Shown piece by piece: positions 1,176 to 28,870 of a stretch of 31,867 nucleotides of DNA. The DNA is from a virus (taxonomy: Duplodnaviria > Caudoviricetes). The notes under the pieces were generated by a model. It had not been told where the DNA came from. It ran no database searches and saw only the letters and a list, made by a program, of their open reading frames with translations. A program made the translations under genes and the position numbers. The first letter of the stretch is position 1. The number at the start of each line of letters is the position of its first letter. The stretch is from the IMG/VR virus record IMGVR_UViG_3300042914_001395, positions 1 to 31,867 of that record, one strand, 5' to 3'.

Positions 1176-1187
1176 GATTTTCCCCTG

Positions 1188-1221
1188 AACCCCGCAGAAC
1201 ATCGCGGGGTTTTTTATTTTT
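1188..1221 (+). terminator. intrinsic terminator of early unit 1
   Basis: AACCCCGC-8 nt loop-GCGGGGTT followed by a T-run. Confidence 0.85.
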
Positions 1222-3324: not shown

Positions 3325-3377
3325 GTAGTCTGAGTAGGGTAATCTCACCCACTCAAAACCTACGAGGAGATGTGCAA

Positions 3378-3680
3378 ATGAGTAAAGAAAACCATAGCGA
3401 AGAGTTCCACTTTTTTGCATCCAGCGTCGCTGATTGGATAGTCACCACCGACACCCGGACCCTGCCGGACCTGATCGAGTTCATGGATAAAGCAGGGTAT
3501 CCGTACAGCCTTTGGATGGTTCCCGGCAACTGGGACAGCAACTACGAGATCAAGTGGTATGCGCCACAGGTCGAGGGGGCCAAGTTCCTAGGGCACTTCA
3601 AAGCACCCAAAGAGCGCAGAAAAGAGGCCAAACAGTGCGAGAAGGCCCAGGCTAAACTGAAGGTTTTAGAGGTCGCATAA
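3378..3680 (+). CDS. hypothetical phage protein, 100 aa
   Basis: RBS GAGGAG at 3364-3369. ATG 3378 is better spaced than GTG 3372. Confidence 0.8.
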   Translation: MSKENHSEEFHFFASSVADWIVTTDTRTLPDLIEFMDKAGYPYSLWMVPGNWDSNYEIKWYAPQVEGAKFLGHFKAPKERRKEAKQCEKAQAKLKVLEVA

Positions 3681-3712: not shown

Positions 3713-3777
3713 GACTTTACAAAATAAAGTTTTGAACTACAATGAAATCTAGCAGTCAGAAAAATAAAGGAGAGCGC

Positions 3778-4663: not shown

Positions 4664-4839
4664 GCGATGGATTTTGTTCAGAGTGCCGCAAGCCCTGCGT
4701 CAAAGTTAGCCGGGACTATGGCATAGGATCCTACGAATACTGGGGAGCCACCGGGGTCCACCACAATTGGCAGACCGTATCGGAGTGTTGCGAAGAGGAT
4801 GTACTGGAAGAAATCGAAGACGAGGAGAACGAAGAATGA
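4660..4839 (+). CDS. small Cys-rich putative zinc-ribbon protein, 59 aa
   Basis: CSECxxxC...SECC, ATGA coupling, GGAGG RBS. Confidence 0.75.
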   Translation: MSDGFCSECRKPCVKVSRDYGIGSYEYWGATGVHHNWQTVSECCEEDVLEEIEDEENEE

Positions 4840-6004: not shown

Positions 6005-6135
6005 TAAACAAAACGAACTGGTGGTATGAGTCAGGGCAAGCCGCCGAAGCGGCGCAAGAATTAGTATGGTTTGTCGTGATTGTTTTTGTTGGTGTTGGTG
6101 TAATCCTATGGTTAAATGATCGCAAAAATAAATAG
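6001..6135 (+). CDS. small single-TM membrane protein, 44 aa (not in track)
   Basis: ATGA coupling, LVWFVVIVFVGVGVILWL followed by a basic tail. Confidence 0.7.
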   Translation: MINKTNWWYESGQAAEAAQELVWFVVIVFVGVGVILWLNDRKNK

Positions 6136-6144
6136 GAGAGTGAG

Positions 6145-6621
6145 ATGAAATCTTTTGATCAAGACTTAGCATGGCTGGAATATCGCGATGTCTTAGAAAA
6201 TGGTGGAGGTAACTGCCCCTGTTGTCAGAGGTGGGGCAAGATCAATGGCTATCAAATCACCAGCACACAGGTGCGGGGCATGATTTGGATGTTCCAAAAT
6301 TTTTTCGAAGACGAGTGGGTTGACTTAGGCAAAGCACCGAAGTGGGTGTTGAGATCAAAGTCGATGGCTACCCTGCACCACTGGGGTCTACTCGAAACAA
6401 AGAAAAATGCGGACAAAAAGGTACGGGGTTCTGGTCTATGGCGGTTGACCCCGTTAGGCCGGGACTTTATACACCGCCATATCACACTGCCGAAGTATGC
6501 GTTTGTATTTAATAACCGGCTGGAGAAGTATTCCGAAGAACAGGTGGATGTTGTTCAAGCATTGGGTAAAAAGTTTTCATATGAAGAGTTAATGAATACA
6601 ACATACGAAGCCACAAAATAG
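6145..6621 (+). CDS. putative DNA-binding protein (CPCC knuckle plus winged-helix-like WRLTPLG), 158 aa
   Basis: AGGAGAGTG RBS, motif pattern. Confidence 0.7.
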   Translation: MKSFDQDLAWLEYRDVLENGGGNCPCCQRWGKINGYQITSTQVRGMIWMFQNFFEDEWVDLGKAPKWVLRSKSMATLHHWGLLETKKNADKKVRGSGLWRLTPLGRDFIHRHITLPKYAFVFNNRLEKYSEEQVDVVQALGKKFSYEELMNTTYEATK

Positions 6622-6630
6622 GAGAGTGAA

Positions 6631-6849
6631 ATGGCAAAAGTTAAATTAGGTACTTTAATTTATGACACCTCCAAAGAAGAAGGTGTTGTAGATATTAATT
6701 GGGGAGAACTACCTGAAGATGTTATGGGGCTAGATATTCTTAGCGATTGGTCTGCTCAGTTAACAAGGCACTACCACAAAGAAGTTACTAAAGTTTTTAA
6801 GCACGAAATTAAAACGGGTGAACTTATTAAATTTTGGAGTGCTGATTGA
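6631..6849 (+). CDS. hypothetical protein, 72 aa
   Basis: AGGAGAGTG RBS. Confidence 0.75.
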   Translation: MAKVKLGTLIYDTSKEEGVVDINWGELPEDVMGLDILSDWSAQLTRHYHKEVTKVFKHEIKTGELIKFWSAD

Positions 6850-10418: not shown

Positions 10419-11402
10419 ATGAAAAACCTAGCAGTCTTAGTTTTATCTTTAATCATCAGTGGTTCAGCATTTGCTTGGAAGCCAACTAAAAACATAACAA
10501 TGGTTGTGCCATTCCCTCCGGGTAGTGGTAATGACCTGATCGCACGGTCTGTATCTGAGTCGGTATCTCGAACTACTGGGGTCACTATTGTTATAGAGAA
10601 CAAAGCGGGTGCGGGTGGTACGGTGGGTATGATGCACCTAAACACGTTGCCGAATGATGGGCATAGCGTATCGCTTGCCTCGATGGGTGGCATTACGGCT
10701 ATGGACTACACGCTACCTAACTTTCATCAAAACCCCCCTTATGACATAGGATCTTTTTCGTATGCGCTCAAGGCAGGGTTCTCGCCCGTGGTTATTATTG
10801 CCAATGCAGATGACCCAGTTAGTACGCCAAAACAATTGATCGATGTGTTAACCAAAGAGAAGGTCGATGTCGGGCACTCCGGTGGTGGGGGTAGGCTTGG
10901 TTTAGAGTCTGCGTTAATTGCGATTGGAGCCAACAAGAATGCAGGGTTAAACAGGGTAGAGCATCGTGGCCCTGCTCAGACTGCCATAGATGTTGCGGGT
11001 AAACACGTTAGGTTTGGTGCGTTGCCGTTAGCCGTTGCCGTTACGTTCAAAGATGCTAACAAGATAAAGATCATTACGCATACGGCTAGAGATCCAATCA
11101 AGACGCTACCGAACGTGCAACCGTTTAGCACAGTCGTGCCGGGATTTAATGCCACGGTGGATTGGGGTGTGGTGCTACCCAAGAGTACCCCTAACGAAGT
11201 GCTAGATTGGTACGCCAAAGAATTTGGTAAGGCTTTAGACGATGAAAAGGTAAAGGCTTTCTTTGGTTCAAACTTTTTCTTTGTATCAGACCCCGCTCTC
11301 AGGACACCCAAAGCGTTTGCATCATGGGTAACGGAGCAGAGAAAGAAGAACACACCTGTGGTCAATGAAGTTGTTCGACTAATCAAGGTAGAGACTAAGT
11401 GA
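10419..11402 (+). CDS. tctC: Bug/TctC-family tripartite tricarboxylate transporter periplasmic substrate-binding protein
   Basis: Signal peptide, WxPxKxITMVVPFPPGSGxDxxAR, IENKAGAGGTVG, PNDGHS, D(V)AGxHV and PKSTPxEV hallmarks. Confidence 0.9.
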   Translation: MKNLAVLVLSLIISGSAFAWKPTKNITMVVPFPPGSGNDLIARSVSESVSRTTGVTIVIENKAGAGGTVGMMHLNTLPNDGHSVSLASMGGITAMDYTLPNFHQNPPYDIGSFSYALKAGFSPVVIIANADDPVSTPKQLIDVLTKEKVDVGHSGGGGRLGLESALIAIGANKNAGLNRVEHRGPAQTAIDVAGKHVRFGALPLAVAVTFKDANKIKIITHTARDPIKTLPNVQPFSTVVPGFNATVDWGVVLPKSTPNEVLDWYAKEFGKALDDEKVKAFFGSNFFFVSDPALRTPKAFASWVTEQRKKNTPVVNEVVRLIKVETK

Positions 11403-12957: not shown

Positions 12958-13247
12958 CACCCGAAGCAAAGGTTAAAAAGAAAGTTACCGCGATACTTAA
13001 AGAGCACGGTGCTTTTTACTTTACGCCCGTAACTGGAGGCTTTGGTCATTCGGGTATCCCGGATATCGTGGCTTGCTTTAACGGTAAGTTCATTGGTATC
13101 GAGTGCAAAGCAGGAGACAAGAAACCCACTGCCTTGCAGAATAAAGTCTTGGAAGATATACGAAGCGCAAGGGGATTTGCGTTAGTAGTGAACGAAAGTA
13201 ATTTGCAGGACGTAGTTGATGTTATTAATTTTATAAAAGGAGAGTAA
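12954..13247 (+). CDS. VRR-NUC domain nuclease (Holliday junction resolvase-like)
   Basis: PEAKVK...GIPDI...FIGIECKA...PTALQ motif. Confidence 0.9.
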   Translation: MTPEAKVKKKVTAILKEHGAFYFTPVTGGFGHSGIPDIVACFNGKFIGIECKAGDKKPTALQNKVLEDIRSARGFALVVNESNLQDVVDVINFIKGE

Positions 13248-13249
13248 CC

Positions 13250-13591
13250 ATGAGTTGGCAAAAAGTTGATGATAAAGAGTTGTTGTTAGCAATTGACGAA
13301 ACAGAAGTAGAAGTTCCCCCTGAAGTTGTAGAGGCGATAGCCAAACCACGCCGTGGTCGCCCAAAGAAGAATGATGATAGTTCTTCTCATGATCCTGTAA
13401 ACAGCCCGCACCATTACACGGCAGGAGGGGTCGAAACAATTGATTTTATCGAAGCCAAAAAACTTAATTTTCATCTTGGAAATGTGGTTAAGTATGTCTC
13501 TCGCGCAGGGATGAAGGGGCAATACGTACAGGACCTTGAGAAAGCCGCATGGTACCTAGCCCGGGAGATTGAACGCGCCAAGGGGGAATAA
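13250..13591 (+). CDS. DUF3310 (SaV / T7 gp1.7-like) protein with an N-terminal AT-hook-like motif
   Basis: DPVNSPxHY..GG.ETIDFIE...GNVVKYVSRAGxK...DLEKAAWYL, plus KPRRGRPKK. Confidence 0.9.
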   Translation: MSWQKVDDKELLLAIDETEVEVPPEVVEAIAKPRRGRPKKNDDSSSHDPVNSPHHYTAGGVETIDFIEAKKLNFHLGNVVKYVSRAGMKGQYVQDLEKAAWYLAREIERAKGE

Positions 13592-16653: not shown

Positions 16654-16725
16654 TTGTAATTTGTTGTAGTTTTGTTTTATCCGAAAGCGGACACCGCTTT
16701 TGGAGGCTTGGCTATCGGAGAGTGC

Positions 16726-18273
16726 GTGAAAATATTAGAAAACAAAGCGCTTTTATTAAAAGTAAAAGACGCTGAACGGATTACCAAAGTTATCCCTAAG
16801 AGCAGGGTAATGGCGGCGCATCCAGATCATTACGAAGTGCTTGTGCATTGGGGGTTGGAAGAATCCCGGGTGCTAAAAAACCTGAACATTAAAAATGTTC
16901 CGTCGCCTATTCTGGGTAACTACAAATGGAACGGTCTGTACAAACCGTTTGATCATCAGAAAACAACTTCGGCATTTCTAACTCTGCACAAGCGGGGCTT
17001 TTGCTTCAACGAGCAGGGGACCGGCAAAACAGGTTCCGTCATCTGGGCCGCAGACTATTTGATGACGCTTGGATTTATCAAGCGAGTCTTGGTTATCTGC
17101 CCGCTATCAATCATGGAGTCGGCATGGCGTGCAGACCTTTTTAAGTTTGCCATGCACCGATCAGTGGATGTGGCCTACGGCAACCGAGACAAAAGAAAAA
17201 CAATTATCGAGGGTTCAGCAGAATTTGTAGTCATTAACTTTGATGGTGTTGAAATTGTTGCTGACGATATTAGTAAAGCAAAGTTTGACTTGATTGTTGT
17301 GGACGAGGCCAACGCCTACAAGAACCCGCAGACCAAGCGCTGGAAGGTTCTAAACCGTCTGGTTACGCCTGAAACATGGCTGTGGATGTTGACGGGTACC
17401 CCCGCATCCCAATCGCCGCTCGATGCCTATGGGCTGGCAAAGTTGGTTTCTCCTGACCGTGTGCCGAAGTACATGACGCTCTTCCGGGATATGGTCCTCT
17501 ACAAAGTTAGCCAGTTCCGATGGATAGCAAAGCCCAACGCTGACACGGTAGTACACAACGCTCTACAGCCTGCCATCCGGTTCACCAAGGAGCAGTGCCT
17601 AGACCTACCAGAGATGACCTACGTCACCCGGGACATACCGCTTACCCCTCAGCAAACTAAGTACTACGAGATTATGCGCAAGGAAATGCTGGTCAGCGCC
17701 GCGGGGGAGCAGATAACTACAATCAATGCCGCAGCCAATCTCAATAAATTGCTTCAATTGTCAGGGGGCGCAGTCTATTCGGATACTGGCGAGGTAGTCC
17801 AGTTTGACGCAGGGACTCGGATGTCCGTGCTGGAGGAAGTAATCGACGAGGCGTCTCACAAAGTCTTAGTGTTTGTACCGTTTCGCCACGCTATCGAAAT
17901 CATCACGGAGCACCTGAAAAAGCGCTATGCCGTGGATACTATTCACGGAGGGGTATCAGCCGGGAAGCGCACCCAGATCTTTGAAAAATTCCAAAAAGAA
18001 AAAGATCCTCGCGTGTTAATTATTCAGCCGCAAGCCGCCAGCCACGGGGTAACCCTACATGCCGCAGACACCATTGTGTACTGGAGTCCTGTTATGTCAG
18101 TGGAGACTTACCTACAAGCAAACGCCCGGGTCCATCGTGCGGGCCAGAAAAACGCGACAACGGTAATCCACCTGCAAGGTAGCCCAGTAGAACGCAAACT
18201 TTACAAAATGTTGCAGGACAAGGTAGACGTACATTTAAAAATTACAGATATGTATACGGAACTTTTATCTTAA
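16726..18273 (+). CDS. SNF2-family (SF2) helicase
   Basis: EQGTGKT, VVDEA, LTGTP, HGVTL and QANARVHRAGQ motifs. GGAGAGTGC RBS before GTG 16726. Confidence 0.95.
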   Translation: MKILENKALLLKVKDAERITKVIPKSRVMAAHPDHYEVLVHWGLEESRVLKNLNIKNVPSPILGNYKWNGLYKPFDHQKTTSAFLTLHKRGFCFNEQGTGKTGSVIWAADYLMTLGFIKRVLVICPLSIMESAWRADLFKFAMHRSVDVAYGNRDKRKTIIEGSAEFVVINFDGVEIVADDISKAKFDLIVVDEANAYKNPQTKRWKVLNRLVTPETWLWMLTGTPASQSPLDAYGLAKLVSPDRVPKYMTLFRDMVLYKVSQFRWIAKPNADTVVHNALQPAIRFTKEQCLDLPEMTYVTRDIPLTPQQTKYYEIMRKEMLVSAAGEQITTINAAANLNKLLQLSGGAVYSDTGEVVQFDAGTRMSVLEEVIDEASHKVLVFVPFRHAIEIITEHLKKRYAVDTIHGGVSAGKRTQIFEKFQKEKDPRVLIIQPQAASHGVTLHAADTIVYWSPVMSVETYLQANARVHRAGQKNATTVIHLQGSPVERKLYKMLQDKVDVHLKITDMYTELLS

Positions 18274-18282
18274 AAAAGACTC

Positions 18283-18310
18283 TTGACAATGTAAAGAGCA
18301 GTGTTATAAT
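18283..18310 (+). promoter_or_regulatory. sigma70 promoter for the SSB/primase operon
   Basis: TTGACA-16 nt-TATAAT with a TG extended -10. Confidence 0.85.
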
Positions 18311-18332
18311 TAAGAAAAAACAGGAGAGTGTT

Positions 18333-18761
18333 ATGAATCAAGAAAGTATGTCTATTCAGGATTGCCTGAAAAAGGCAAGCACTGAGCAGTTAGTAAAATC
18401 CTACATCAAAATTCGCGATGCCATCGAAGTATTGGAGCGCGAGCACAAAGAAGCAATTAAGCAACGTGCTGAAAAACAAAGCATGATTGAAGAAGAACTT
18501 CTTGCTCGATGCAACGATGCTGGTGGCAATATCACGATCCCAACTGTAGGGCGTGTTACCCGTCGTATTATGAAGCGTTACTGGACCTCTAATTGGCCTG
18601 CGCTTTACCAAATCATCAAGGAGAACGATGCGTTTCATTTGTTGCATCAACGCATTACAAACAATGCAATGGATCAGTTCCTTGAGGAAAACCCAGATCT
18701 CATGCCAGCCGGTTTGAATCTGGATAGCAAGCAAACCGTTGTTGTAACTCGAATGTCTTAA
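18333..18761 (+). CDS. conserved phage replication-module protein (N-terminal coiled coil), 142 aa
   Basis: YIKIRD...W..LY..IKEN...LL.QRI...FLEENP..PxGL, located upstream of the SSB-like gene. Confidence 0.8.
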   Translation: MNQESMSIQDCLKKASTEQLVKSYIKIRDAIEVLEREHKEAIKQRAEKQSMIEEELLARCNDAGGNITIPTVGRVTRRIMKRYWTSNWPALYQIIKENDAFHLLHQRITNNAMDQFLEENPDLMPAGLNLDSKQTVVVTRMS

Positions 18762-18779
18762 TTTTTAAGGAGAGTAGTC

Positions 18780-19664
18780 ATGTCAGATTTAGAACTTTTT
18801 AAAGGTGGTATACCGGCTCACTTGCAAAAGAAAGAGTTGGACGAAGCAACCAGATCACTTATGGGTGTGCAAAGCAGTGTTGGTACAACAGCAGGCAAAC
18901 GTATCTCAATCAAGGCGGGTGTATTCCGCATGATTGTGGACGGCGAAGAAGTTGCGCAGAACCAAGACCGTGCAATGAATGTCATCATTGTTTCAGCGGC
19001 GCCCAAAGACTCGCGCACGTTTTATGCTGAGAAGTTTGTAGAGGGTCAGAAAATATCTGCCCCAGACTGCTGGTCTAATAACGGGGACTACCCGGATGCA
19101 AAGGCCAAGAACCCTCAGTCCAAGCGTTGCGTGGATTGCCCTCAGAATCAGGCAGGGTCTGCACCCAATGGTAAGCGTGCTTGCCGGTACAGCCGTCGTG
19201 TTGCGGTGTCCTTAGAGAATGATTTGAATGGTGATGTGTATCAACTAACCATCCCAGCAAACTCTTTGTGGAACGCAGACAATGGCAAACTAGGTATTAA
19301 ACCTTATGCCGAACTGTTGGGTAGTCATAACCTAAACGTAACAGACGTGGTCACTGAGATCCGTTTTGATACTACTAGTTCTTCTCCCAAACTGGGGTTC
19401 AAGGCTATCCGTCCTTTGACTGAAGAAGAGATCGCTAAAGTACAAGAACTTAGCAAAACTTCTGAGGCTCAAAAGGCTATTGGTCATACCCCTGCCGCGC
19501 TTGATGGCGCCGCGCAGCCTGCCGCTTTACCAGCCGCCGAACCCAAATCGGAGCCTAAAGCAGCAAAGCCTGCCGAGCCTATCAAAGAACCCGTGAAGCG
19601 TGAGAAAAAAGACGCTGCACCTAAAGAAGATGTAGGCGAACTTCTCGACGACTGGGCCAACTAA
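18780..19664 (+). CDS. putative single-stranded DNA-binding protein
   Basis: RISIK.G.F, PDCWS, CxxCP.N..GS...AC, Pro/Ala/Lys linker and acidic-aromatic C-terminus (LLDDWAN). Function inferred from context. Confidence 0.65.
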   Translation: MSDLELFKGGIPAHLQKKELDEATRSLMGVQSSVGTTAGKRISIKAGVFRMIVDGEEVAQNQDRAMNVIIVSAAPKDSRTFYAEKFVEGQKISAPDCWSNNGDYPDAKAKNPQSKRCVDCPQNQAGSAPNGKRACRYSRRVAVSLENDLNGDVYQLTIPANSLWNADNGKLGIKPYAELLGSHNLNVTDVVTEIRFDTTSSSPKLGFKAIRPLTEEEIAKVQELSKTSEAQKAIGHTPAALDGAAQPAALPAAEPKSEPKAAKPAEPIKEPVKREKKDAAPKEDVGELLDDWAN

Positions 19665-19953: not shown

Positions 19954-22767
19954 ATGACCTCAAGGAATCTTTTTCTCTCCGCAGTCTTGCCTACAGACGG
20001 CCTGTACTGTGTGGTAGGGTTAAAAAGGGGAACTCCACGGCAGACATTTGTAAGTTCGCTGGAAGAAGTTGATGAGTTAGCAAACACTTTGGTAGAACAG
20101 CAGTTCGATGTCTACTTTGGTTGCGCTAAATTTGAGACTGACGAAGGACGAACAGCAAAGAATGCTAAATGGTTTAAAGCATTTTGGCTTGATTTAGATT
20201 GTGGTGAGGGGAAAGAGTACGAAGGACAAGCACAGGCACTGACTGCTTTAAAACAGTTTTGCCAAACAGTAGGGCTACCAAAACCAACGCTGATTAATTC
20301 GGGTCGAGGGATACATGCATACTGGCCTCTAGTTGAGACGGTGTCGTATAACGAGTGGAAACCCGTTGCCGAAGCGTTTAAAAAACTATGTGCTGAGAAA
20401 GACCTTCACGCTGATCCTTCTGTAACTTCGGATGCCGCACGCATTCTGCGCATACCCGACACACTTAACTTCAAGAACCAAGAAGCACCCTATAAAGTTG
20501 TAGCCATGTCGTTGTCCGAGCCGCTGGAGTTCGGCGTGTTCAAAGACAAGGTCGGGTTTAACTTTATGGCTACCCTAACCCCGAACAACAAAAAAGCACT
20601 CGATGACACTACCCGGGCGTTAATAGGTAATCGTATATCGAAGTTCCACAACATAATGTTGAAAGCGAAAAATGGGAAAGGTTGCCAACAACTTAGTTAT
20701 ATTTACAAAAACCAAGACTCTGTCAAAGAACCCTTGTGGAGATCTGGCCTTTCTATCGCTCAGTTTTGTCAAGATAGGGAGACAGCAATACACCGTCTAT
20801 CGAGTAAACACCCAAACTACTCCGCTTCCGAAACTGAAGACAAGGCTTCCTCGATCCCCGGGCCACATCGCTGTGAGACATTTGAAACAAATAACCCTAA
20901 TGGGTGCGAAGGGTGCCCACACAAAGGCAAGATCTCTTCCCCAATTCAATTGGGTACCGAGATCGCAGAGGCAACTGCTGAAGATAATATTGTTGTTATT
21001 AAAAACGAAACTATTGGCACCGAAGTTACAGTGGAGATCCCGCCATACCCCTTTCCTTATTTCAGGGGGAAAAAGGGGGGAGTCTATAAACGTGGGATGC
21101 CTAACTCAGACTCTGAAGAAGACGGCGAAGACGTATTGATCTACGAACACGATTTCTATGTTGTTAAGCGATTAATTGATCCCCGTGATGGTGAGATGGT
21201 TTGGATGCGGTTGCACATGCCTAGAGATGGTATCCGAGAGTTTTCAGTTCCACTTACCAGCGTGGGGGCAAAAGACAAACTACGAGAAATAATTGCTGCC
21301 AAAGGCGTGGCGGCTTTAGGTAAACAAATGGACAACATCATGGCTTACATAACAAAGTGGGTTAAAGAACTACAAACAATGACAACGGCGGAACTTTCTC
21401 GGGTTCAGTTTGGGTGGACAGCAGAAAACACATTCATCATCGGAGACCGGGAAATTAAAGCGGGCGAAATAATATACAGCCCACCCTCGAGCGATACTAT
21501 TAATCTAGTCCCTGCTTATACAAAGGGCGGCACGCTGGAGAATTGGAGAAAGATTGCGAACTGGTATAACCGTCCAAACATGGAGGCCCGGGCGTTTAAT
21601 TTATTTGCAGGGTTTGGAACCCCACTGCTTAAGTTCACAAACCTGAAAGGCGTGCAGATCCACCTAACCGATGACGGGTCGGGTACTGGCAAGACCTCGA
21701 TTGAGATGGCTATCAACTCTATTTTTGGGCATCCAGAAAAGACCATGCTGTACGAACAGGATAAGTTTCTGGCTAAGATGCACCGCATGGGTACGGTTCA
21801 AAACATGCCTGTCTGTATTGATGAGATAACAAATACTGCCCCGGAAGAAATAAGTAACCTTGCATACATATCAACGCAGGGTCGAGGCCGTAATCGAATG
21901 ATGACCCAGAGTAACTCCGAGCGTATTAACAATACGACTTGGGCTTTGATTCTCTGGACCTCGGGAAACAAGTCTGTGCATGACGTGCTCTACAGTATGA
22001 AGACCTTTCCAGAAGGCGAGTTGATGCGGGTAGTTGAGATCAATATCCCCAGAGACTTAACAGCCACTAAAGAAGAGTCGGACGAGTGGTACAACAGCAT
22101 GTTCGAGAATTACGGTCTGGCGGGGGAAGCCTACATGAAATATGTGGTGGCTCACCAAGAATACATCCGGGACAAGATCAAAGAAATCCAAGCCAAGTTT
22201 GACGAGGATGCTGGTCTGACTCAACGGGAGCGTTTTTACTCTGCCTTGGCGGCGGTGGCTATAGTGGGCGGCATGATTTCCAAAAAGTTAGAACTGCACG
22301 ATATTGAAATCAAGCGGGTCTATCAGTGGGCGGTCAAGCATTTCTCTGGGGCTAGAAGTTCGGTCAAACCTAATTCCCTAGTTCCTTTGGATCAACTTGG
22401 CCTATATCTCAACGAGCACAATCAAAACCTGCTGGTCATTAATAGCGAGATTGATAGCCGCACGAGCATGGAGCAAGCACCCATCCAGACCCCGTACCGC
22501 GAACTGCTAACCCGTTACGAGCCAGATACTCGGCTACTTTTTATCAATACCAAGCACTTCCGGGATTGGTGTACCCAAAACCAAGTTTCCTATAGGACCA
22601 TATCTGCCAGCCTAGAGAAAGATGGCGTGGCGCAATTGGGAGTAAAAAAGCGTCTGGCTCGGGGCACAAAACTCAATACGCCCGCGGTCAACACAATGGT
22701 CATTGATACCCGCAAGATAGAGGGGTTCGACATGCAGGAGTACATCCCAAATGGAAATCTTGAATGA
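19954..22767 (+). CDS. primase-helicase: AEP/RepB-like primase, Cys cluster, DUF927 and P-loop ATPase
   Basis: WLDLD, SGRGIHAYW, RILRIPxTxN, C...CxxCP, QFGW, GSGTGKT and IDE motifs. Confidence 0.9.
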   Translation: MTSRNLFLSAVLPTDGLYCVVGLKRGTPRQTFVSSLEEVDELANTLVEQQFDVYFGCAKFETDEGRTAKNAKWFKAFWLDLDCGEGKEYEGQAQALTALKQFCQTVGLPKPTLINSGRGIHAYWPLVETVSYNEWKPVAEAFKKLCAEKDLHADPSVTSDAARILRIPDTLNFKNQEAPYKVVAMSLSEPLEFGVFKDKVGFNFMATLTPNNKKALDDTTRALIGNRISKFHNIMLKAKNGKGCQQLSYIYKNQDSVKEPLWRSGLSIAQFCQDRETAIHRLSSKHPNYSASETEDKASSIPGPHRCETFETNNPNGCEGCPHKGKISSPIQLGTEIAEATAEDNIVVIKNETIGTEVTVEIPPYPFPYFRGKKGGVYKRGMPNSDSEEDGEDVLIYEHDFYVVKRLIDPRDGEMVWMRLHMPRDGIREFSVPLTSVGAKDKLREIIAAKGVAALGKQMDNIMAYITKWVKELQTMTTAELSRVQFGWTAENTFIIGDREIKAGEIIYSPPSSDTINLVPAYTKGGTLENWRKIANWYNRPNMEARAFNLFAGFGTPLLKFTNLKGVQIHLTDDGSGTGKTSIEMAINSIFGHPEKTMLYEQDKFLAKMHRMGTVQNMPVCIDEITNTAPEEISNLAYISTQGRGRNRMMTQSNSERINNTTWALILWTSGNKSVHDVLYSMKTFPEGELMRVVEINIPRDLTATKEESDEWYNSMFENYGLAGEAYMKYVVAHQEYIRDKIKEIQAKFDEDAGLTQRERFYSALAAVAIVGGMISKKLELHDIEIKRVYQWAVKHFSGARSSVKPNSLVPLDQLGLYLNEHNQNLLVINSEIDSRTSMEQAPIQTPYRELLTRYEPDTRLLFINTKHFRDWCTQNQVSYRTISASLEKDGVAQLGVKKRLARGTKLNTPAVNTMVIDTRKIEGFDMQEYIPNGNLE

Positions 22768-22954
22768 GGGGGTCCCGGTCTATATTGAATGGCATCTTTT
22801 GGCCCCGGGGGCATCTTTCTTTATTCCGGCGATTCAAACCACCCAACTGGCCCGGGCAGTCCGTAAAAGAGCCGCGGAGCGGGGGATTACCTTAACTCAC
22901 AGGGTCTGCATAGACAACGGCATGTATGGGGTCAGATTCTGGAGGGTTCCCTAA
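22751..22954 (+). CDS. small conserved phage protein, 67 aa
   Basis: AGGAG RBS, W..L.PGxSFFIP...GVRFWR motif. Confidence 0.8.
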   Translation: MEILNEGVPVYIEWHLLAPGASFFIPAIQTTQLARAVRKRAAERGITLTHRVCIDNGMYGVRFWRVP

Positions 22955-22981
22955 TCAAGAATCCTGTGGTAGATTCCGGAG

Positions 22982-23060
22982 CGGTGTATGGCTATTTATA
23001 GTCATGGCACTCTCCTCGTAGTACTTTACGCCCTCTGATCCCCTTGGAGGGCGTTTTTTT
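22982..23060 (+). ncRNA. candidate small RNA (or structured 3' UTR) carrying an anti-RBS seed
   Basis: Extended -10-like TG-G-TAGATT (22967-22975), 5' hairpin 22984-23010, seed CACTCTCCTCGTAG, intrinsic terminator. The 5' end is estimated. Confidence 0.5.
23028..23060 (+). terminator. intrinsic terminator at the convergence of the early/middle and late arms
   Basis: ACGCCCTCTGA-TCCCC-TTGGAGGGCGT followed by a T-run. Confidence 0.9.
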
Positions 23061-23062
23061 CT

Positions 23063-26000
23063 CTAGCGACTAATACCTGCGGCCTCCATGACCCGATAAC
23101 CTTGACGGGCAACCTGATCATATATCTTCTGCAACCGGTTAATTTTTTCGCGGCGCTCTTCGGGATCACCTTCGTAGTCCCGTTTAAGTATGTTGATTTG
23201 CGAGCGGATCTGAGCCATCTGATCTTGGATGCGCCGCAACGATGGGGCAACCGACATGAGTTTAATATTTTCCTCATCGCTGATGAATTCTTTTAATTCC
23301 TCAACGCGGCCCTCTTTCTTCATACGGTTAACCGCGTTAACAGCCTCTTGAGAATTCTTTATCAGATCGTAGAAATCGGTAGCCGGTTTACTGGTATTTG
23401 GGTCAGTCAAGAAGGCTTTAAAGAAACCTTGGTTCTCTAGGTTCTTAGCAGGAGGTTCTTTGCCGGTGGCTGTGGTAATCACATTGCTTGCCATGCCTGT
23501 GGAGAATGAGCCAAGTTCCGCAAAGTAACCTTGGATAAGGTGGTCAATCTTAGCGGGAGACAACCCTATTTCGGATAACCCAAGACGGCTTAGACTCTTA
23601 GCAAACTCACCCGCATTTGGACCTCTCATCTCTACGGGTAAACCCTGATCACTCATACCTTCGATTGCGCGGCCTGTAAACAGCGAATGGTTAAATATGG
23701 ACTCCAGTGCTGGCTTAAAAGCCTGCGGAATTAGCACTGCTTCTCCCGGGAGACTTCTACGCAGACTGCGGAAATAAGAACCTAAAACTTCTTTGCCCGT
23801 GCTGGTATCTGCCATGTAGCGGACAGCCCCTTCGGGAATGGTCTTAAATAAGAAACCAACCTCAAACGGGATTGGGATTTTAATAAATGAGCCAGCACTA
23901 CCAATAGGGCTTGGCAGTAGCCAGTTATCGTCTTTTACGTTGTCAGGCAGTTTCTTATAGTCCTCATCGTCCTGCATGAGCATTGCATAAACCGCAGAAA
24001 ACACGACCATCATGGCAGCACGTTTTTTAAATAAATCTTGCGCAATTTTCTTTTCGGCAGGATTAAGACCGTATCCCGTAGCCGTGCGGTATAGAGTATC
24101 TAAACTTGTAATAGCCGCCGAGAAGAACGGAATTGAATGACGCAAAACATTCAGCATTTGGGAGTTACCCCGAACCGCAAAGTTAATAGACTCCCGCGCC
24201 TTATGAACCGCATAGTTGATGGCGTCTTTCTCAGACATGCCTTGCTTAAGTGCATACGCTTTTTCGTTTTTAAAAATTGCTACGCGGGTGGCAGCGTCAG
24301 AGGCTTCGTGCATCCGCATAATTTTGTGGATGGCCTTATCCAACATAGTTGGTGATAGTTTTTCTGTACCTACCTGTTTTAAAAAATCTTGAGCAGATGG
24401 AACATTAAGCGCCGATGCCCCAACTAAATTAGCCATTGGGTCAATTTGACCGATCACCCCACGCTCTGCAAGTATCCGGGCCTCCTCCGAATTATCTCTA
24501 AGAACCTGTATGTACTCTTTTGCCGCGTGGAACGGGGTAACAATCTGATTTAAGTTACCAGCGATACTTGCGTGGATTGGGTCACGTATAAGTTGGCGTA
24601 TCCAGTAGATTGGGTTAATCAACGCACCAGCCCGTAGGACTTGGGTGGTTGCCGAGATGCCTTTCATCAGCGGACCCAACTCGTAGTTCATCATTTGAAA
24701 CGCCACTAAATCATTTGGGTTATCTAAGATGACATGGACTACCCCGTGCTTATCCGCGTTCGGGTTGGTTGGGTCTCTGTATTTTAGATTAATATCGGGG
24801 TTGCTTGGGTTTGTGGCAATTTTCGCCGCGTCAATGCCCATGCTCATTAACTGCTGCACCGCTACCCGTCGTGTTTGGTTTTGATAAGCCGCCGCAATCT
24901 GCGAAGCATAGTGCTTATCCATGTTCTCCCAAATGTTGCGTTGCAACTCACTGCCTTCAAGATGCTCAATTAACCGAACAGTTTTAGTGCCAGTGCTTTT
25001 GCCGGTGTAGGTTTCTTGTTCACTTGGGAGCAAATCCACCCGGGAGGCGTAGAGCGGCACGTAGAAGTTACGTTTGCGCAGGCGGTCTGCCTCTTCTTTT
25101 GAAAGCAAGCCGGTGTTTTCCCACAGGTCCAGAAGGCTACGGTTGATGTTGCGCCAGATATCCAAAATTTCTTGGACTTCAGGTACGGCGTCTAACTGTT
25201 GCTCGGCCCAGTCTATATGCGCCTGTGTAACTTGCTTCTCACGGTTTAACGTCAAGTCTTTCAGGTACATCTTACGGATGGCCTTAGCCTCATTTACCAG
25301 TTTCATGATGTCAGTCAGGGACGCACCTGCCGCCTTGTACTGCTTGGCTAGGGCTATCTTTTGCTTTGCCTCTAGCATCTTTCCAGCGGCTATACGGCGA
25401 CGCTCGGCATCAACTTGTTGGATTTCACGACCCCGCAAAATACGAGAGATTTCAGCCACATACCCACGGCCTGAAAATCCGGTGCCCTTGACAATATCGT
25501 TGTCGTCTAACTTATCAGCAAGAATCTGGGAGCGAGCCATATTATTGGCATCGCGCTGAATAACGATTGACCCATCGCTGTTAACTACTGGGATCCCCGT
25601 CTGCAAACCTACCTTAATAAGGTTGATGACTTGATTAAACGAACGAATCAGCATATCCGCACGCAACTGACCGTTCTGGAATACCGGCAAAGAACTCAAT
25701 GTCTTAGATAACCCAGTCCCCGAATCTACGGCAGCGATACGAAACTTCGTCCACCAGTCTCCATTAAAAGCGTCTGTAATGTTCTTAGCCGCATCTTTGA
25801 CCTTTTGGGATGTCGTGGGTGACGGCTGTAACTTTGTCGTAGTTGGCAGAGTGTACTTTTGACCAAGCCCGGGTACGGACGGTCCCGGTGCAGGCGTAGG
25901 TGCCGGGGCTGTTGGAGTTGCGGTTACCCCCGGAGCGATAGCGGAGAAGATGTCCTCTTCTGCTGGTACAGAGGGAGCAGCGCCTTCTTCTACTTGTATA

Positions 26001-28870
26001 CCCACTGGCCTACCAGCACGCGGCATCGGGGTTACAGGAGTCTGGGAAGTAACTAGTTGTTCGGTAAGACTAAGGATCTCAGCAAGTGCGGTTTGTGCTC
26101 TGGGTGATAGACCGATCAAACGGCGGATCATTTCTACAAACGAATTAAATGCGCTCTTGCCTTTATATTGAATGCCTTCAAGCACACGCCGGAAGTCTGC
26201 GTTAGTCATTGACCACGACACCATCTCGTCGGCTTTGTGAACGGTTCTACCATAATGTTTAGAACCAAATGCATTTGTACCCGTTAGAAATTTCAGTTCG
26301 TAAGGTTTGATAGTCCCATCACGACGCTTACGCTGTAGTTCTTTTTTAACATGACTACGTAGGTCTTCAATTTCTTTTACGATCCGACCTTCATTTGTAT
26401 TAGGGTTTACCTGCCCATACCGGATCAACGCAATAGTTACCGTATGAAGTAACTCATGCATAACAACTTCATAGGTTGCGCCAAAAGGACGCCCGGAGCC
26501 GGTACCCGAAATTACCAACTCCATTAGATTACCTTTGGGGTATACGTGGCCCGCAGCGCGATTACTTAACTGCAATGCTCGGGACATCGAGGGGCTAGTA
26601 GAAAGCGTAAACGTAAATTTGTAGCCACGCTTTTTCATACGGTCTACCGCGTCTTTGACTCCTCTCATCATTTCCCGCATAGCAGGAGGGCCGTTATTTA
26701 GCGCGTAGTTAAGCAGTCCATCGTAGTCAAGACCTTTGATCTCGTTTTCGATAGATACATCGGTAATTTTTTTCTCTTCTTCAAATACTTTTTCAATCTG
26801 CTCTGGTGTTTGTGTGGACTCACCAACTAGACGCTCGTTATACAGATTTACGATGTCTTGGAAGTTGACCGCGCTACCATGACCCCGATTAACAAAGCCT
26901 AACCATGCGTTCTTTTCTTCCGCATTTAGATCGCCAAACGCAGGGTGATCGTCATTTTTGTGGCGGTTCCAAGCAGCCTCTGGGTCCATCGGTGCGGCGG
27001 GCGGTGCGGTAACTGGAGGCGCCGGGGGTGCTCCTTCTTCAAATAGGCCAGCCTGCTCGGCACCTTGGAACTGTCGGCTCCTAATACCAGTGTCGATGTC
27101 CATACCCGTCATGCGTTTGTAGACGGTCTCAAGCAATTCTTTCTGGGCTTCGCTAAGGGCTTTCATGCCAGCCGGTAGACGTGCGGTGCGGTCAGCCTCA
27201 AACAACTGCTCCATCGCTTGGACAGGATCTTCGTTAGTTTTTAGAAACTCGGCTAGCCTGTCATTCAGCGCTTTAGTTGACGCAGGGTTATTGCCCTTCA
27301 GAATCTTAGAAGCACTAGGATCTTGTTTAGCCTCTTTGACGGTGCTCTCTACAGTGCCCGGGAGATCGATGGCTTCGGGTGCCGTTGGGGTAGGCAAAGG
27401 GGTTGGCGCAGGCTGCTCGGTGGGGGCTTTACCCGGGAACAACTCTTGCTGTCCCGTAAGTGGCATCTCCAACTGTTCTCCCTCAAGTTCTGGGGGTGCA
27501 GGCGGGGCGGGGGGTTGTTCTTCGTAGCCAACAACTTTGCCCTCTTTATCCAAAATAGGACGCAGATTTTCTGTGGCTTCGGGCAATCTACCTTTTGGTA
27601 TAACACCAGCCAAGTCTCTCGCGGGAGCAAACCCCGGACCTTCGGGAGTAGCCACGCCCTCTAGTTCTAACTCCGATACCGCAGGCTCTCCATAAGTGGT
27701 AGGAGACACAGGACGGCCCGTAGGTGGTGTGCCGGGAGGTGGCCCCGGGGGTAATCCTTGTGGTTGAGGTGGTTTAGCACCTTCGGTTTTACCAAATAAA
27801 ATATCGGTAGCCATTTGCACGCCACCACCGCCAATCGCACCGCGCAGGCCAGAGTCTATAAATTTGACTAGGTTTTCAGGTGTAAAGATTTCTTTGTTTT
27901 CATCAACAAAATTCACCGCCGCGGCATTGGTTATTTCTTGCGCAGCCTCGGTAAGGCCCTCAGTTAAAGCCCCCTTGCCAAGTCCTTTGGCACCACGCAA
28001 GTACCAAGCGCCCACTAGTTCTTCGTTGGTAATCCCTTTTCCCCGGGCGGCTCGTATCAGGCTAACTGGGGTTGCGGCATCTAACAGGGCGTTAAAGGAA
28101 CCCGCACCAATTGCCGGTAATAGAGATTCCTGCCCGGTCTCAGAGTAAATAGTCTGAAAAGCAGCGGGAATATTAAGCGCTGCCGAGCCTATATAGGCAC
28201 TGCCGACATCTGCCGCTAACTGGTTACGGAACAAGGCTTTTTCTGCCGCCGTTTTACCAAGTGCCGCAGCACGCTGTCCGGCAATACCAGATACAAATTC
28301 TTCGGCTGCTCCGGGTGCTCCACGCACGGCGGCTTCTTTGGCCTCTTCCAAGGCTTTGCGTTTAGCAATTTCTCCCGCCGCTTGGCTAGACTTTGCCACA
28401 GCCCCCCTAGTAAGGAGGGATCCAAAACCCCCAGTAAAAATACCGGGAAGTAAAGACGCAACGGACTCGCCAAATGCTTCTTTTGCGTAATTAAGGGCTT
28501 GTATCGGGTCTTCTATTTGTTTGTAAGTTTCAAACTCAGCAGGGAAACGCTTTGCAATTTCTTCCTGTGTTTGGATTGCTTCTTCGTACTGACGTTTTTT
28601 ATAGTTTTCAATAGATGGCTGAAAACTTTCGGGAGCAATTTTTTCAAGTGCGGTTGCACCCATAATGGGTATAAAGTCTGCAATCAAAGACCCTACATTT
28701 TTACCGCCTCGTTTTACAGCACTCATAAAGGTGCCGTAATTTTCCACTGCCGTTTTAAATTCTTTAGGACTAAACCCTTCTGTATCTAAATAGCCATCGA
28801 TATGGTAAGAGGGCGCACCCTGATCGACCATCTTTTGGACATTGTCCCTAATTCTTGCAAAGTCGGACAT
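23063..28870 (-). CDS. large internal virion/ejection (polyvalent) protein with HExxH motif and C-terminal LPD38-like domain, 1935 aa
   Basis: Ala/Gly-rich N-terminus, Pro-rich linkers, VMHELLH...DE, C-terminal DYxxLP..VKDxNW...IKIPIPFEVG.LFK.IPE. Confidence 0.85.
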   Translation of the reverse strand: MSDFARIRDNVQKMVDQGAPSYHIDGYLDTEGFSPKEFKTAVENYGTFMSAVKRGGKNVGSLIADFIPIMGATALEKIAPESFQPSIENYKKRQYEEAIQTQEEIAKRFPAEFETYKQIEDPIQALNYAKEAFGESVASLLPGIFTGGFGSLLTRGAVAKSSQAAGEIAKRKALEEAKEAAVRGAPGAAEEFVSGIAGQRAAALGKTAAEKALFRNQLAADVGSAYIGSAALNIPAAFQTIYSETGQESLLPAIGAGSFNALLDAATPVSLIRAARGKGITNEELVGAWYLRGAKGLGKGALTEGLTEAAQEITNAAAVNFVDENKEIFTPENLVKFIDSGLRGAIGGGGVQMATDILFGKTEGAKPPQPQGLPPGPPPGTPPTGRPVSPTTYGEPAVSELELEGVATPEGPGFAPARDLAGVIPKGRLPEATENLRPILDKEGKVVGYEEQPPAPPAPPELEGEQLEMPLTGQQELFPGKAPTEQPAPTPLPTPTAPEAIDLPGTVESTVKEAKQDPSASKILKGNNPASTKALNDRLAEFLKTNEDPVQAMEQLFEADRTARLPAGMKALSEAQKELLETVYKRMTGMDIDTGIRSRQFQGAEQAGLFEEGAPPAPPVTAPPAAPMDPEAAWNRHKNDDHPAFGDLNAEEKNAWLGFVNRGHGSAVNFQDIVNLYNERLVGESTQTPEQIEKVFEEEKKITDVSIENEIKGLDYDGLLNYALNNGPPAMREMMRGVKDAVDRMKKRGYKFTFTLSTSPSMSRALQLSNRAAGHVYPKGNLMELVISGTGSGRPFGATYEVVMHELLHTVTIALIRYGQVNPNTNEGRIVKEIEDLRSHVKKELQRKRRDGTIKPYELKFLTGTNAFGSKHYGRTVHKADEMVSWSMTNADFRRVLEGIQYKGKSAFNSFVEMIRRLIGLSPRAQTALAEILSLTEQLVTSQTPVTPMPRAGRPVGIQVEEGAAPSVPAEEDIFSAIAPGVTATPTAPAPTPAPGPSVPGLGQKYTLPTTTKLQPSPTTSQKVKDAAKNITDAFNGDWWTKFRIAAVDSGTGLSKTLSSLPVFQNGQLRADMLIRSFNQVINLIKVGLQTGIPVVNSDGSIVIQRDANNMARSQILADKLDDNDIVKGTGFSGRGYVAEISRILRGREIQQVDAERRRIAAGKMLEAKQKIALAKQYKAAGASLTDIMKLVNEAKAIRKMYLKDLTLNREKQVTQAHIDWAEQQLDAVPEVQEILDIWRNINRSLLDLWENTGLLSKEEADRLRKRNFYVPLYASRVDLLPSEQETYTGKSTGTKTVRLIEHLEGSELQRNIWENMDKHYASQIAAAYQNQTRRVAVQQLMSMGIDAAKIATNPSNPDINLKYRDPTNPNADKHGVVHVILDNPNDLVAFQMMNYELGPLMKGISATTQVLRAGALINPIYWIRQLIRDPIHASIAGNLNQIVTPFHAAKEYIQVLRDNSEEARILAERGVIGQIDPMANLVGASALNVPSAQDFLKQVGTEKLSPTMLDKAIHKIMRMHEASDAATRVAIFKNEKAYALKQGMSEKDAINYAVHKARESINFAVRGNSQMLNVLRHSIPFFSAAITSLDTLYRTATGYGLNPAEKKIAQDLFKKRAAMMVVFSAVYAMLMQDDEDYKKLPDNVKDDNWLLPSPIGSAGSFIKIPIPFEVGFLFKTIPEGAVRYMADTSTGKEVLGSYFRSLRRSLPGEAVLIPQAFKPALESIFNHSLFTGRAIEGMSDQGLPVEMRGPNAGEFAKSLSRLGLSEIGLSPAKIDHLIQGYFAELGSFSTGMASNVITTATGKEPPAKNLENQGFFKAFLTDPNTSKPATDFYDLIKNSQEAVNAVNRMKKEGRVEELKEFISDEENIKLMSVAPSLRRIQDQMAQIRSQINILKRDYEGDPEERREKINRLQKIYDQVARQGYRVMEAAGISR

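What the first reader, a model, noticed from the sequence alone, without database searches (positions are those of the whole stretch)
22960..23060. Candidate phage sRNA complementary to the phage's own private RBS dialect (AGGAGAGTG)
Seen: the ~105-bp gap after the last plus-strand gene holds an extended -10-like element (TG-G-TAGATT), a 5' hairpin (22984-23010), a stretch TCATGGCACTCTCCTCGTAG (23002-23021) and a strong terminator, an sRNA-like layout. That stretch is the reverse complement of an RBS plus start codon (CTACGAGGAGAGTGCCATGA). It pairs with many RBSs in this genome: an 11-nt perfect match to CTACGAGGAGA at 3360-3370 (then GTGC after a 1-nt bulge); 9-nt perfect AGGAGAGTG at 6134-6142, 6620-6628 and 18322-18330 (15 contiguous pairs through the AUG with two G-U at 18322); GGAGAGTGC at 16717-16725; AGGAGAGT at 13238 and 18768; and weaker matches at 3768 and 5521. 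The AGTG extension is not needed for 16S anti-SD pairing, so something else seems to conserve it. Inference: one trans-acting RNA, made as an sRNA or released from the 3' end of the replication transcript, shuts off translation of early/middle genes as a class. This would be an RBS-barcode-based early-to-late switch. I know of no description of this for such phages but cannot check the literature.
Basis: partly seen in the sequence, partly recalled or inferred. Interest (0 to 1): 0.85.

Follow-up and report, generated by a model that had tools for sequence, protein, structure and literature searches.

The report
Phage RNA mirrors its replication-gene starts
A family of uncultured phages keeps a predicted 80-base RNA gene whose middle is the mirror image of the ribosome-binding starts of several of the phage's own DNA-replication genes and changes in step with them, so one small RNA likely turns those genes down, although no transcript has been seen.

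Summary
The layout (extended -10, 5' hairpin, anti-RBS stretch, terminator) recurs in 51 of 57 family loci, in 31 sequence types, and in 30 of 36 loci from a second collection.

Each genome's RNA fits its own plus-strand start regions better than relatives' RNAs do (p=5e-5; sister-pair swaps p=0.005), but not its late genes (p 0.10-0.86). The fit is strongest for three conserved genes: Gam/Gp157-like, SSB-like and SNF2 helicase. Matches cover SD-spacer-start codon, up to 18 nt, and follow an ATG-to-GTG change. The minus-strand micro-ORF is not conserved.

Limits: only a subset is matched (8 of 45 plus-strand starts here). Primase and the six earliest genes are not matched. A G-U asymmetry test was negative. 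There is no RNA evidence, and timing is unknown, so 'early-to-late switch' remains inferred.

Verdict: a likely trans-acting translational repressor of replication and recombination genes in an apparently integrase-free phage. It works like P1 c4 RNA or T4 RegA/RegB but belongs to neither. This scan has noted similar RNAs on other genomes.

The parts
22965..22975 (+). extended -10 promoter-like element (TGTG-N-TANNNT) without a TTGACA-like -35
   Evidence: best -35 match at most 4 of 6 in all 31 types; stays with the RNA when a gene is inserted upstream in L008
22981..23061 (+). predicted small RNA, about 80 nt (5' end inferred from -10 spacing)
   Evidence: no transcript observed
22983..23011 (+). 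5' hairpin
   Evidence: in one clade of relatives, compensatory changes and plus-strand G-U pairs
23002..23021 (+). seed complementary to SD-spacer-start codon; 3' half unpaired, 5' half in the hairpin
23028..23061 (+). intrinsic terminator with a U tail on the + strand only
   Evidence: no A-run before the stem in any of 31 types
22751..22954 (+). 67-aa conserved gene of unknown function, last gene of the primase operon; used as the anchor for relatives
23063..28870 (-). last late gene (1935-aa virion protein, LPD38 domain), converging on the RNA
18283..18310 (+). sigma70-consensus promoter (TTGACA-16-TATAAT) in front of the two main target genes
   Evidence: a TTGAC-like -35 is visible upstream of most orthologues
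18322..18336 (+). predicted main target: start of the 142-aa Gam/Gp157/Pam3-gp33-like gene (18333-18761)
18768..18782 (+). predicted target: start of the 294-aa OB-fold, gp3/gp32-like SSB gene (18780-19664)
16717..16728 (+). predicted target: start of the SNF2 helicase gene (GTG 16726-18273)
3360..3380 (+). predicted target: start of an unknown gene at 3378; best match in this genome (11 nt)
4820..4838 (+). predicted target: start of the DUF3846 gene at 4836 (9 nt)
6134..6147 (+). predicted target: start of the gene at 6145 (9 nt)
6620..6633 (+). predicted target: start of the gene at 6631 (9 nt)
13238..13252 (+). predicted target: start of the DUF3310 gene at 13250 (8 nt); no co-variation across this gene's family

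Best explanation
The gap holds a conserved promoter-hairpin-seed-terminator unit whose seed is complementary to, and co-varies with, the start regions of a subset of the phage's own replication and recombination genes; it likely makes an 80-nt RNA that would pair over SD, spacer and start codon and block 30S loading. Shown from sequence: the layout, its conservation, the strand, the genome-specific complementarity, and the absence of such a fit on late genes. Inferred: transcription by host sigma70 polymerase from the extended -10 (or release from the primase-operon 3' end); pairing that starts from the unpaired CU-rich half of the seed; possible help from Hfq (suggested only by the U tail); repression rather than activation, which follows from established knowledge of SD occlusion. 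Least certain step: the RNA would build up with time and template copy number and cap SSB-like, Gam-like and helicase synthesis as replication proceeds, easing the move to late proteins, the role ascribed to RegB in T4.
For: Layout in 51 of 57 loci, 31 types and 30 of 36 further loci. In each of 8 carrier records a genome-wide scan found it once, at this junction. Hairpins: 8 of 15 pairs have two-sided changes, and G-U pairs work only on the + strand. Own RNA versus relatives' RNAs on plus-strand starts: median rank 3-4 of 31, p = 5e-5, 28 genomes; late starts p 0.10-0.86. Longest match, own versus others: Gam-like 8.6 vs 6.0 nt, SSB-like 8.0 vs 6.3, helicase 7.4 vs 5.5 (each p = 1e-4); polymerase 6.4 vs 5.4 (p = 6e-4); resolvase p = 0.008. 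Sister swaps for the Gam-like and SSB-like genes: 10 pairs favour own, 1 the swap, 3 tie (p = 0.003). The effect persists in positions -7..+6 alone; it is absent upstream, and essentially absent in the sense orientation (one weak p = 0.037, 0.3 nt). New types from a second collection repeat it (p 0.005-0.033). In L124 and L129 the Gam-like gene starts with GTG and the seed reads CAC within 17-18 perfect pairs.
Against: No transcript has been observed. The G-U asymmetry test was negative: 100 G-U-type versus 105 A-C-type transitions in own pairs, the same ratio as in cross pairs. Primase (31 genomes) and three other conserved plus-strand genes show no co-variation, and 'other conserved genes' in sister swaps reach only p 0.06-0.12. 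Two coding-sequence control windows of the SSB-like gene also showed a small own-genome excess (0.4-0.5 nt, p 0.015 and 0.0015). One clade (L015, L016, L033, L034, L039) and L011 lack the element at this junction, so it appears dispensable. Some late genes of L019 and L060 match 8-10 nt. The promoter pattern was tuned after viewing the loci. Types share ancestry, so permutation p-values are too small; the sister swaps are the fairer test.
Confidence: 0.7

Rival explanations
1. Same RNA and same pairing, but the main role is exclusion: RNA accumulated in an infected or carrier cell would silence the replication genes of a superinfecting phage with the same RBS spelling, and seed and RBS diverge together like immunity types.
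For: Seeds and target starts diverge quickly and together. c4 RNA underlies P1/P7 heteroimmunity (PMC12197685). The RNA's promoter is of host sigma70 type.
Against: No tyrosine integrase or serine recombinase in 5 of 5 records searched, 3 of them at least 90% complete, so a stable lysogen is not indicated. This reading needs the same self-repression as the main one.
Confidence: 0.1
2. The RNA is a general anti-SD poison aimed at host mRNAs (host shut-off), and the fit to phage starts reflects a shared host RBS style.
For: Weak resemblance to Rfam RF02278, the Betaproteobacteria toxic sRNA family (18.8 bits vs a cut-off of 50), whose members are toxic in E. coli (PMC4603805 passage). The CUCC core must match many host SDs.
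Against: Late genes are read by the same host ribosomes yet show no own-genome fit. The fit extends into gene-specific spacer and start codon and follows a GTG start. The host is unknown, so host starts were not scored.
Confidence: 0.08
3. The working element is the sense copy: either a DNA site bound by a phage protein, or late-mRNA read-through on the minus strand carrying an RBS look-alike that titrates a translational repressor or the plus-strand RNA.
For: The G-U asymmetry test was negative. The terminator is not bidirectional, so late mRNA may run through. Starts of the Gam-like and SSB-like genes resemble each other within a genome (6.8 vs 5.8 nt).
Against: Promoter, U tail and hairpin G-U pairs all point to a plus-strand RNA. 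The promoter moved with the element in L008. Opposite the AUG, the seed complement reads ATG 12 times, the G-U-compatible ACG or ATA 7 times and the incompatible GTG never, of 48 (weak, non-independent).
Confidence: 0.07
4. The stretch is only the RBS and start of a translated minus-strand micro-ORF (16 codons here).
For: SD plus ATG on the minus strand in the window and in 20 of 31 types.
Against: No start behind the SD in 11 of 31 types; the others give 3 to 91 codons with no common sequence. This rival does not explain the genome-specific match to other genes' starts.
Confidence: 0.02

Closest known systems
c4 antisense RNA of phages P1 and P7 (PMC12197685; parts 2 and 4 of 6 read)
   Same: A phage RNA that pairs around the ribosome-binding site of the phage's own mRNA and blocks translation, with phage-specific sequences.
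   Different: c4 targets the antirepressor mRNA of a temperate phage. Here the predicted targets are several replication and recombination genes at separate loci, the records searched lack integrase, and there is no Rfam C4 match.
T4 RegA repressor and RegB SD-cutting RNase (PMC3014915; passages read)
   Same: One phage factor acting on many of the phage's own translation starts. RegA binds about 30 initiation regions; RegB cuts GGAG in early SDs and is proposed to ease the early-to-late transition.
   Different: Both are proteins. Here the specificity would be base pairing by an RNA whose seed and targets change together from genome to genome.
Betaproteobacteria toxic small RNAs, Rfam RF02278 (PMC4603805 passages; Rfam consensus)
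   Same: Short RNA with a CU-rich anti-SD stretch and an intrinsic terminator; the TctC gene here hints at a betaproteobacterial host (inference).
   Different: Score 18.8 bits vs a cut-off of 50; those RNAs are chromosomal with unknown targets; this RNA has a 5' hairpin before the seed and a variable, target-tracking seed.
PAK_P3 sRNA1 and sRNA2 (PMC4933390; passages read)
   Same: About 100-nt intergenic RNAs of a virulent phage, abundant late, proposed to silence translation in trans.
   Different: Their proposed targets were host tRNA loops and single phage genes; no match to a shared RBS and no co-variation is reported in the passages read.

Membership tests
C4 antisense RNA (P1/P7) | covariance-model match to the C4 family | tested here: not met
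   no gathering-level Rfam hit in the window; C4 is absent from the 10 hits at E up to 10
C4 antisense RNA (P1/P7) | complementary to the RBS region of an own mRNA encoded elsewhere | tested here: met
   by sequence only:
C4 antisense RNA (P1/P7) | target is an antirepressor mRNA | tested here: not met
   the best conserved targets are Gam-like, SSB-like and SNF2 helicase genes
C4 antisense RNA (P1/P7) | maintains prophage immunity | tested here: inconclusive
   no integrase or serine recombinase in 5 records; a plasmid-like or carrier state is not excluded
RF02278 Betaproteobacteria toxic sRNA | model score at or above the gathering cut-off of 50 bits | tested here: not met
   18.8 bits, E 0.11
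RF02278 Betaproteobacteria toxic sRNA | short RNA with a CU-rich stretch and an intrinsic terminator | tested here: met
RF02278 Betaproteobacteria toxic sRNA | toxic when expressed in E. coli | not testable with these tools
   needs cloning
trans-acting base-pairing bacterial sRNA | own promoter and intrinsic terminator, no conserved ORF | tested here: met
   (predicted elements)
trans-acting base-pairing bacterial sRNA | accessible seed co-conserved with its targets | tested here: met
   anti-SD 4-mer predicted unpaired in 36 of 40 types; co-variation
trans-acting base-pairing bacterial sRNA | discrete transcript detected | tested here: inconclusive
   no run on record as RNA; two contig-only runs, probably DNA
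trans-acting base-pairing bacterial sRNA | Hfq or ProQ binding and repression of a target | not testable with these tools
   needs co-IP and reporters
T4 RegA/RegB | protein effector acting at initiation regions | tested here: not met
   the element has no conserved reading frame; functional analogy only

The most novel reading that the evidence does not exclude
A lytic phage family uses the spacer between SD and start codon as a private barcode. One RNA reads it and, as it accumulates with genome copy number, switches off the replication and recombination regulon at the move to late expression: an RNA-only counterpart of T4 RegA/RegB whose address code is rewritten in each lineage and may also set which relatives can co-infect.
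Probability: 0.35. Interest if true: 0.9.

Novelty: new variant of a known kind. Interest (0 to 1): 0.74.

Why it matters
Phage RNAs known to act on phage mRNAs mostly control single lysis-lysogeny or exclusion genes of temperate phages (review PMC12197685), and the multi-gene start-site control known from T4 uses proteins. An RNA that co-evolves with the starts of several replication genes would add a post-transcriptional layer to lytic development. It would also show that RBS spacers, usually treated as neutral, can carry a regulatory address. The 40 natural seed-target sets give ready-made cognate and non-cognate pairs for reporter tests without culturing the phage, and a possible source of orthogonal sRNA-RBS parts.

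Tried and rejected
Expression: no RNA holder listed. The two listed runs are contig-only and probably DNA; they cover the region at 90-99% identity and say nothing on transcription.

G-U asymmetry as proof of RNA pairing: negative in flanks and in symmetric segments. Folding energy favours the + strand in only 25 of 40 types.

Host: two genome-collection scans, with the SSB-like and TctC proteins, found no relative, so host starts could not be scored.

Cultured model: Pseudomonas phage Rollin, Rhizobium phage RHph_TM3_14A and Acinetobacter phage HHU4 share the Gam-like/SSB-like pair but show no such RNA at their junction or in the stretches fetched.

Relocated copy in non-carriers: none found in L039, L016, L034, L033 or L011, all incomplete.

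Structure: the Gam-like model had no Foldseek match at E 0.001 or better and was not searched with the wider aligner, so its label rests on sub-threshold Pfam hits. The SSB-like model's best Z of 7.7 is middling. The 67-aa upstream protein matched only unnamed viral clusters.

Rfam: nothing at gathering level. Short motifs of the RNA were not found in 3 of 6 held supplement files of PMC10690425; the other 3 and three oversize files could not be searched, so it may be catalogued there.

Rows dropped before counts: L003 (sequence jumps at the anchor gene), L010 and L059 (contig ends in the anchor gene).

Full report
Setting. The window is a whole 31.9-kb virus record, estimated 51% complete. Small early genes and a replication module lie on the + strand up to 22954: DNA polymerase, PD-(D/E)XK nuclease, Hjc-like resolvase, SNF2 helicase and a DUF927 primase. 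Virion genes lie on the - strand and end at 23063. A TctC gene hints at a betaproteobacterial host (inference). No integrase or serine recombinase was found in 5 of 5 related records, 3 of them at least 90% complete.

Observation. The gap holds TGTG-G-TAGATT (22965-22975), a hairpin (22983-23011), the seed (23002-23021) and a terminator (23028-23061). The + strand folds better than all 200 shuffles. Eight of 14 sites of 8 nt or more and 6 of 6 sites of 9 nt or more fall in start regions, which make up 3.9% of the DNA. Eight of 45 plus-strand starts match by 8 nt or more, against a mean of 0.8 when the AGGAG core is kept and its flanks are shuffled (p = 0.0013); 0 of 3 scored late starts match. 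AGGAGAGT is in 5 of 45 plus-strand starts here and in 0 of 505 in 30 related types, so the spelling is private to this lineage.

Conservation. Using the 67-aa gene before the gap as anchor I fetched 59 loci, dropped 3 (L003, L010, L059) and examined 56 plus the window. A promoter-plus-terminator rule, whose promoter pattern I tuned after viewing the loci, found the unit in 50 of 57. L008 carries it behind an inserted gene with the promoter still attached, giving 51 of 57. The units form 31 types at under 85% identity. Six loci lack it at the junction: one long-branch clade and L011. A genome-wide scan found it once, at the junction, in each of 8 carriers and never in 5 non-carriers. A second collection gave 30 of 36 by a near-identical rule; by eye, 5 more have promoter, CU-rich stretch and hairpin without a U tail. 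In 14 sequences of one clade, 8 of 15 predicted pairs have two-sided changes, and two positions use G-U pairs that work only on the + strand. No type has an A-run before the terminator stem, none has a -35 better than 4 of 6, and the anti-SD core is predicted unpaired in 36 of 40 types.

Co-variation, the decisive test. I called genes with a simple script and scored every RNA against every genome's start regions (-20..+10), removing row and column means. On plus-strand genes the own RNA ranked a median 3-4 of 31 in 28 genomes (p = 5e-5 on four measures). On late genes there was no effect (12 and 20 genomes, p 0.10-0.86). Pooled, 76 of 550 own plus-strand starts match by 8 nt or more (cross pairs 5.8%), against 9 of 349 own late starts (cross 2.3%).

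By gene, with starts corrected by homology, the longest match for own versus other RNAs was 8.6 vs 6.0 nt for the 18333 family (30 genomes), 8.0 vs 6.3 for 18780 (30) and 7.4 vs 5.5 for the helicase (25), each p = 1e-4. It was weaker for polymerase (15; p = 6e-4), resolvase (8; p = 0.008) and exonuclease (19; p 0.056, energy 0.003). It was absent for primase (31), the 16375 family (21), the anchor gene (17) and DUF3310 (11), and for two late families. Without the two main genes the effect remains but is small: 9.1% vs 4.1% of 482 starts, p = 3e-4.

Because types share ancestry, I swapped RNAs within 15 pairs taken from a primase tree (quick method). For the two main genes 10 pairs favoured own, 1 the swap and 3 tied (14 pairs, p = 0.003); all plus-strand genes gave p = 0.005; late genes p = 0.35 (11 pairs); other conserved plus-strand genes p 0.06-0.12. 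The signal persists in positions -7..+6 alone and is absent upstream. In the sense orientation it is essentially absent (one weak p = 0.037, 0.3 nt). Two coding windows of the 18780 family showed a small excess (0.4-0.5 nt). Six new types from the second collection repeat the result (p 0.005-0.033; three of them are close kin and one start is probably miscalled). In L124 and L129 the 18333 orthologue starts with GTG and the seed follows, with 17 and 18 perfect pairs. L018 has 16-nt matches to both main genes.

Targets. The 18333 family gives sub-threshold Pfam hits to Pam3 gp33-like, Mu Gam and Gp157-like families in 13-14 of 27 members; its model had no Foldseek match. The 18780 family gives weak Gp3-like hits in 3 of 25 members. 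Its model is closest to phiC31 gp3 (Z 7.7, rmsd 4.1, 154 aligned), BRCA2 OB folds and T4/RB69 gp32, and it has an acidic-aromatic tail, so it is likely an SSB. These two genes sit behind a consensus sigma70 promoter.

Results against. The G-U asymmetry test was negative (100 vs 105). Only the letters opposite AUG lean the expected way: ATG 12, ACG or ATA 7, GTG 0 of 48. No RNA data were available. The six earliest genes use AAGGGGAA and are not matched, and some late genes of L019 and L060 are matched. The target set is therefore a subset, not the class. The minus-strand micro-ORF is absent in 11 of 31 types and 3-91 codons long in the rest.

Mechanism. Most likely a plus-strand RNA of about 80 nt pairs over SD, spacer and start codon of these mRNAs and blocks initiation (0.7). 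The layout and the complementarity are shown; transcription, pairing and repression are inferred. Accumulation with time and copy number, acting as a cap or switch on replication proteins, is the least supported step. Rivals are exclusion of like-spelled superinfecting phages (0.1), host shut-off (0.08), a sense decoy or DNA site (0.07) and a micro-ORF (0.02).

Known systems. It works like P1/P7 c4 RNA in pairing mode (PMC12197685, parts 2 and 4 of 6 read) and like T4 RegA/RegB in scope (PMC3014915 passages), but fails membership of both and of RF02278 (PMC4603805 passages). PAK_P3 sRNAs are late-abundant with other proposed targets (PMC4933390 passages). I also saw passages of PMC10914365, PMC5737381 and PMC10690425 (3 of its 6 held supplements searched), and the abstract of bioRxiv 10.64898/2026.06.19.733364. 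Kimelman 2012 was not held. Nine searches (listings only, apart from the papers named) showed no description of a phage RNA co-evolving with its own replication-gene starts; subscription journals are not covered. This scan's unchecked notes describe similar RNAs on other genomes; none was a sequence look-alike of this locus.

Verdict. A real, family-wide candidate sRNA with good comparative support for its targets, but no expression data and no timing. New variant of a known kind; interest 0.74.

Noticed in passing
window 1176-1217 and 2322-2368: Both earliest operons, whose six genes all use an AAGGGGAA SD, end with stop codon, GATTTTCCCC, terminator: a possible second anti-RBS element for the genes the main RNA misses. 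The L056 genome has ATTCCCCT in the same place; the L005 genome does not.
   Followed up: partly
window about 1233, 1303, 2392, 2480: A repeated unit of about 30 nt beginning TGATGATAGTTTTT and ending CCTACGGGGAG in non-coding DNA; possibly origin or packaging repeats.
   Followed up: no
window about 143 and 1398: An identical 24-nt promoter-like unit (GACTACAATGTGTTCTAATGTAGT) before the two earliest operons.
   Followed up: no
window 10419-11402: Phage-borne TctC (tripartite tricarboxylate transporter receptor) gene, a host-type auxiliary gene; no close relative found in the genome collection.
   Followed up: partly
window 23022-23063, minus strand: The terminator has no A-run before its stem in any of 31 types, so the late mRNA has no visible intrinsic stop here and may read through as a perfect antisense of the RNA.
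   Followed up: partly
L120, L122, L125, L126, L131, just after the anchor gene: A variant with promoter, ACTCCCC stretch and long hairpin but no U tail.
   Followed up: no
L015, L016, L033, L034, L039 (anchor gene end): A long-branch clade without the RNA at the junction, where the converging genes abut or overlap; a natural loss for comparison.
   Followed up: partly
window 22751-22954: A conserved 67-aa protein ending in GxRFWR in every locus examined, directly before the RNA's promoter, with no known family; could be the promoter's regulator.
   Followed up: partly
L003:200-320: The sequence jumps from the end of the anchor gene into reverse-strand primase DNA; probably an assembly chimera.
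   Followed up: no
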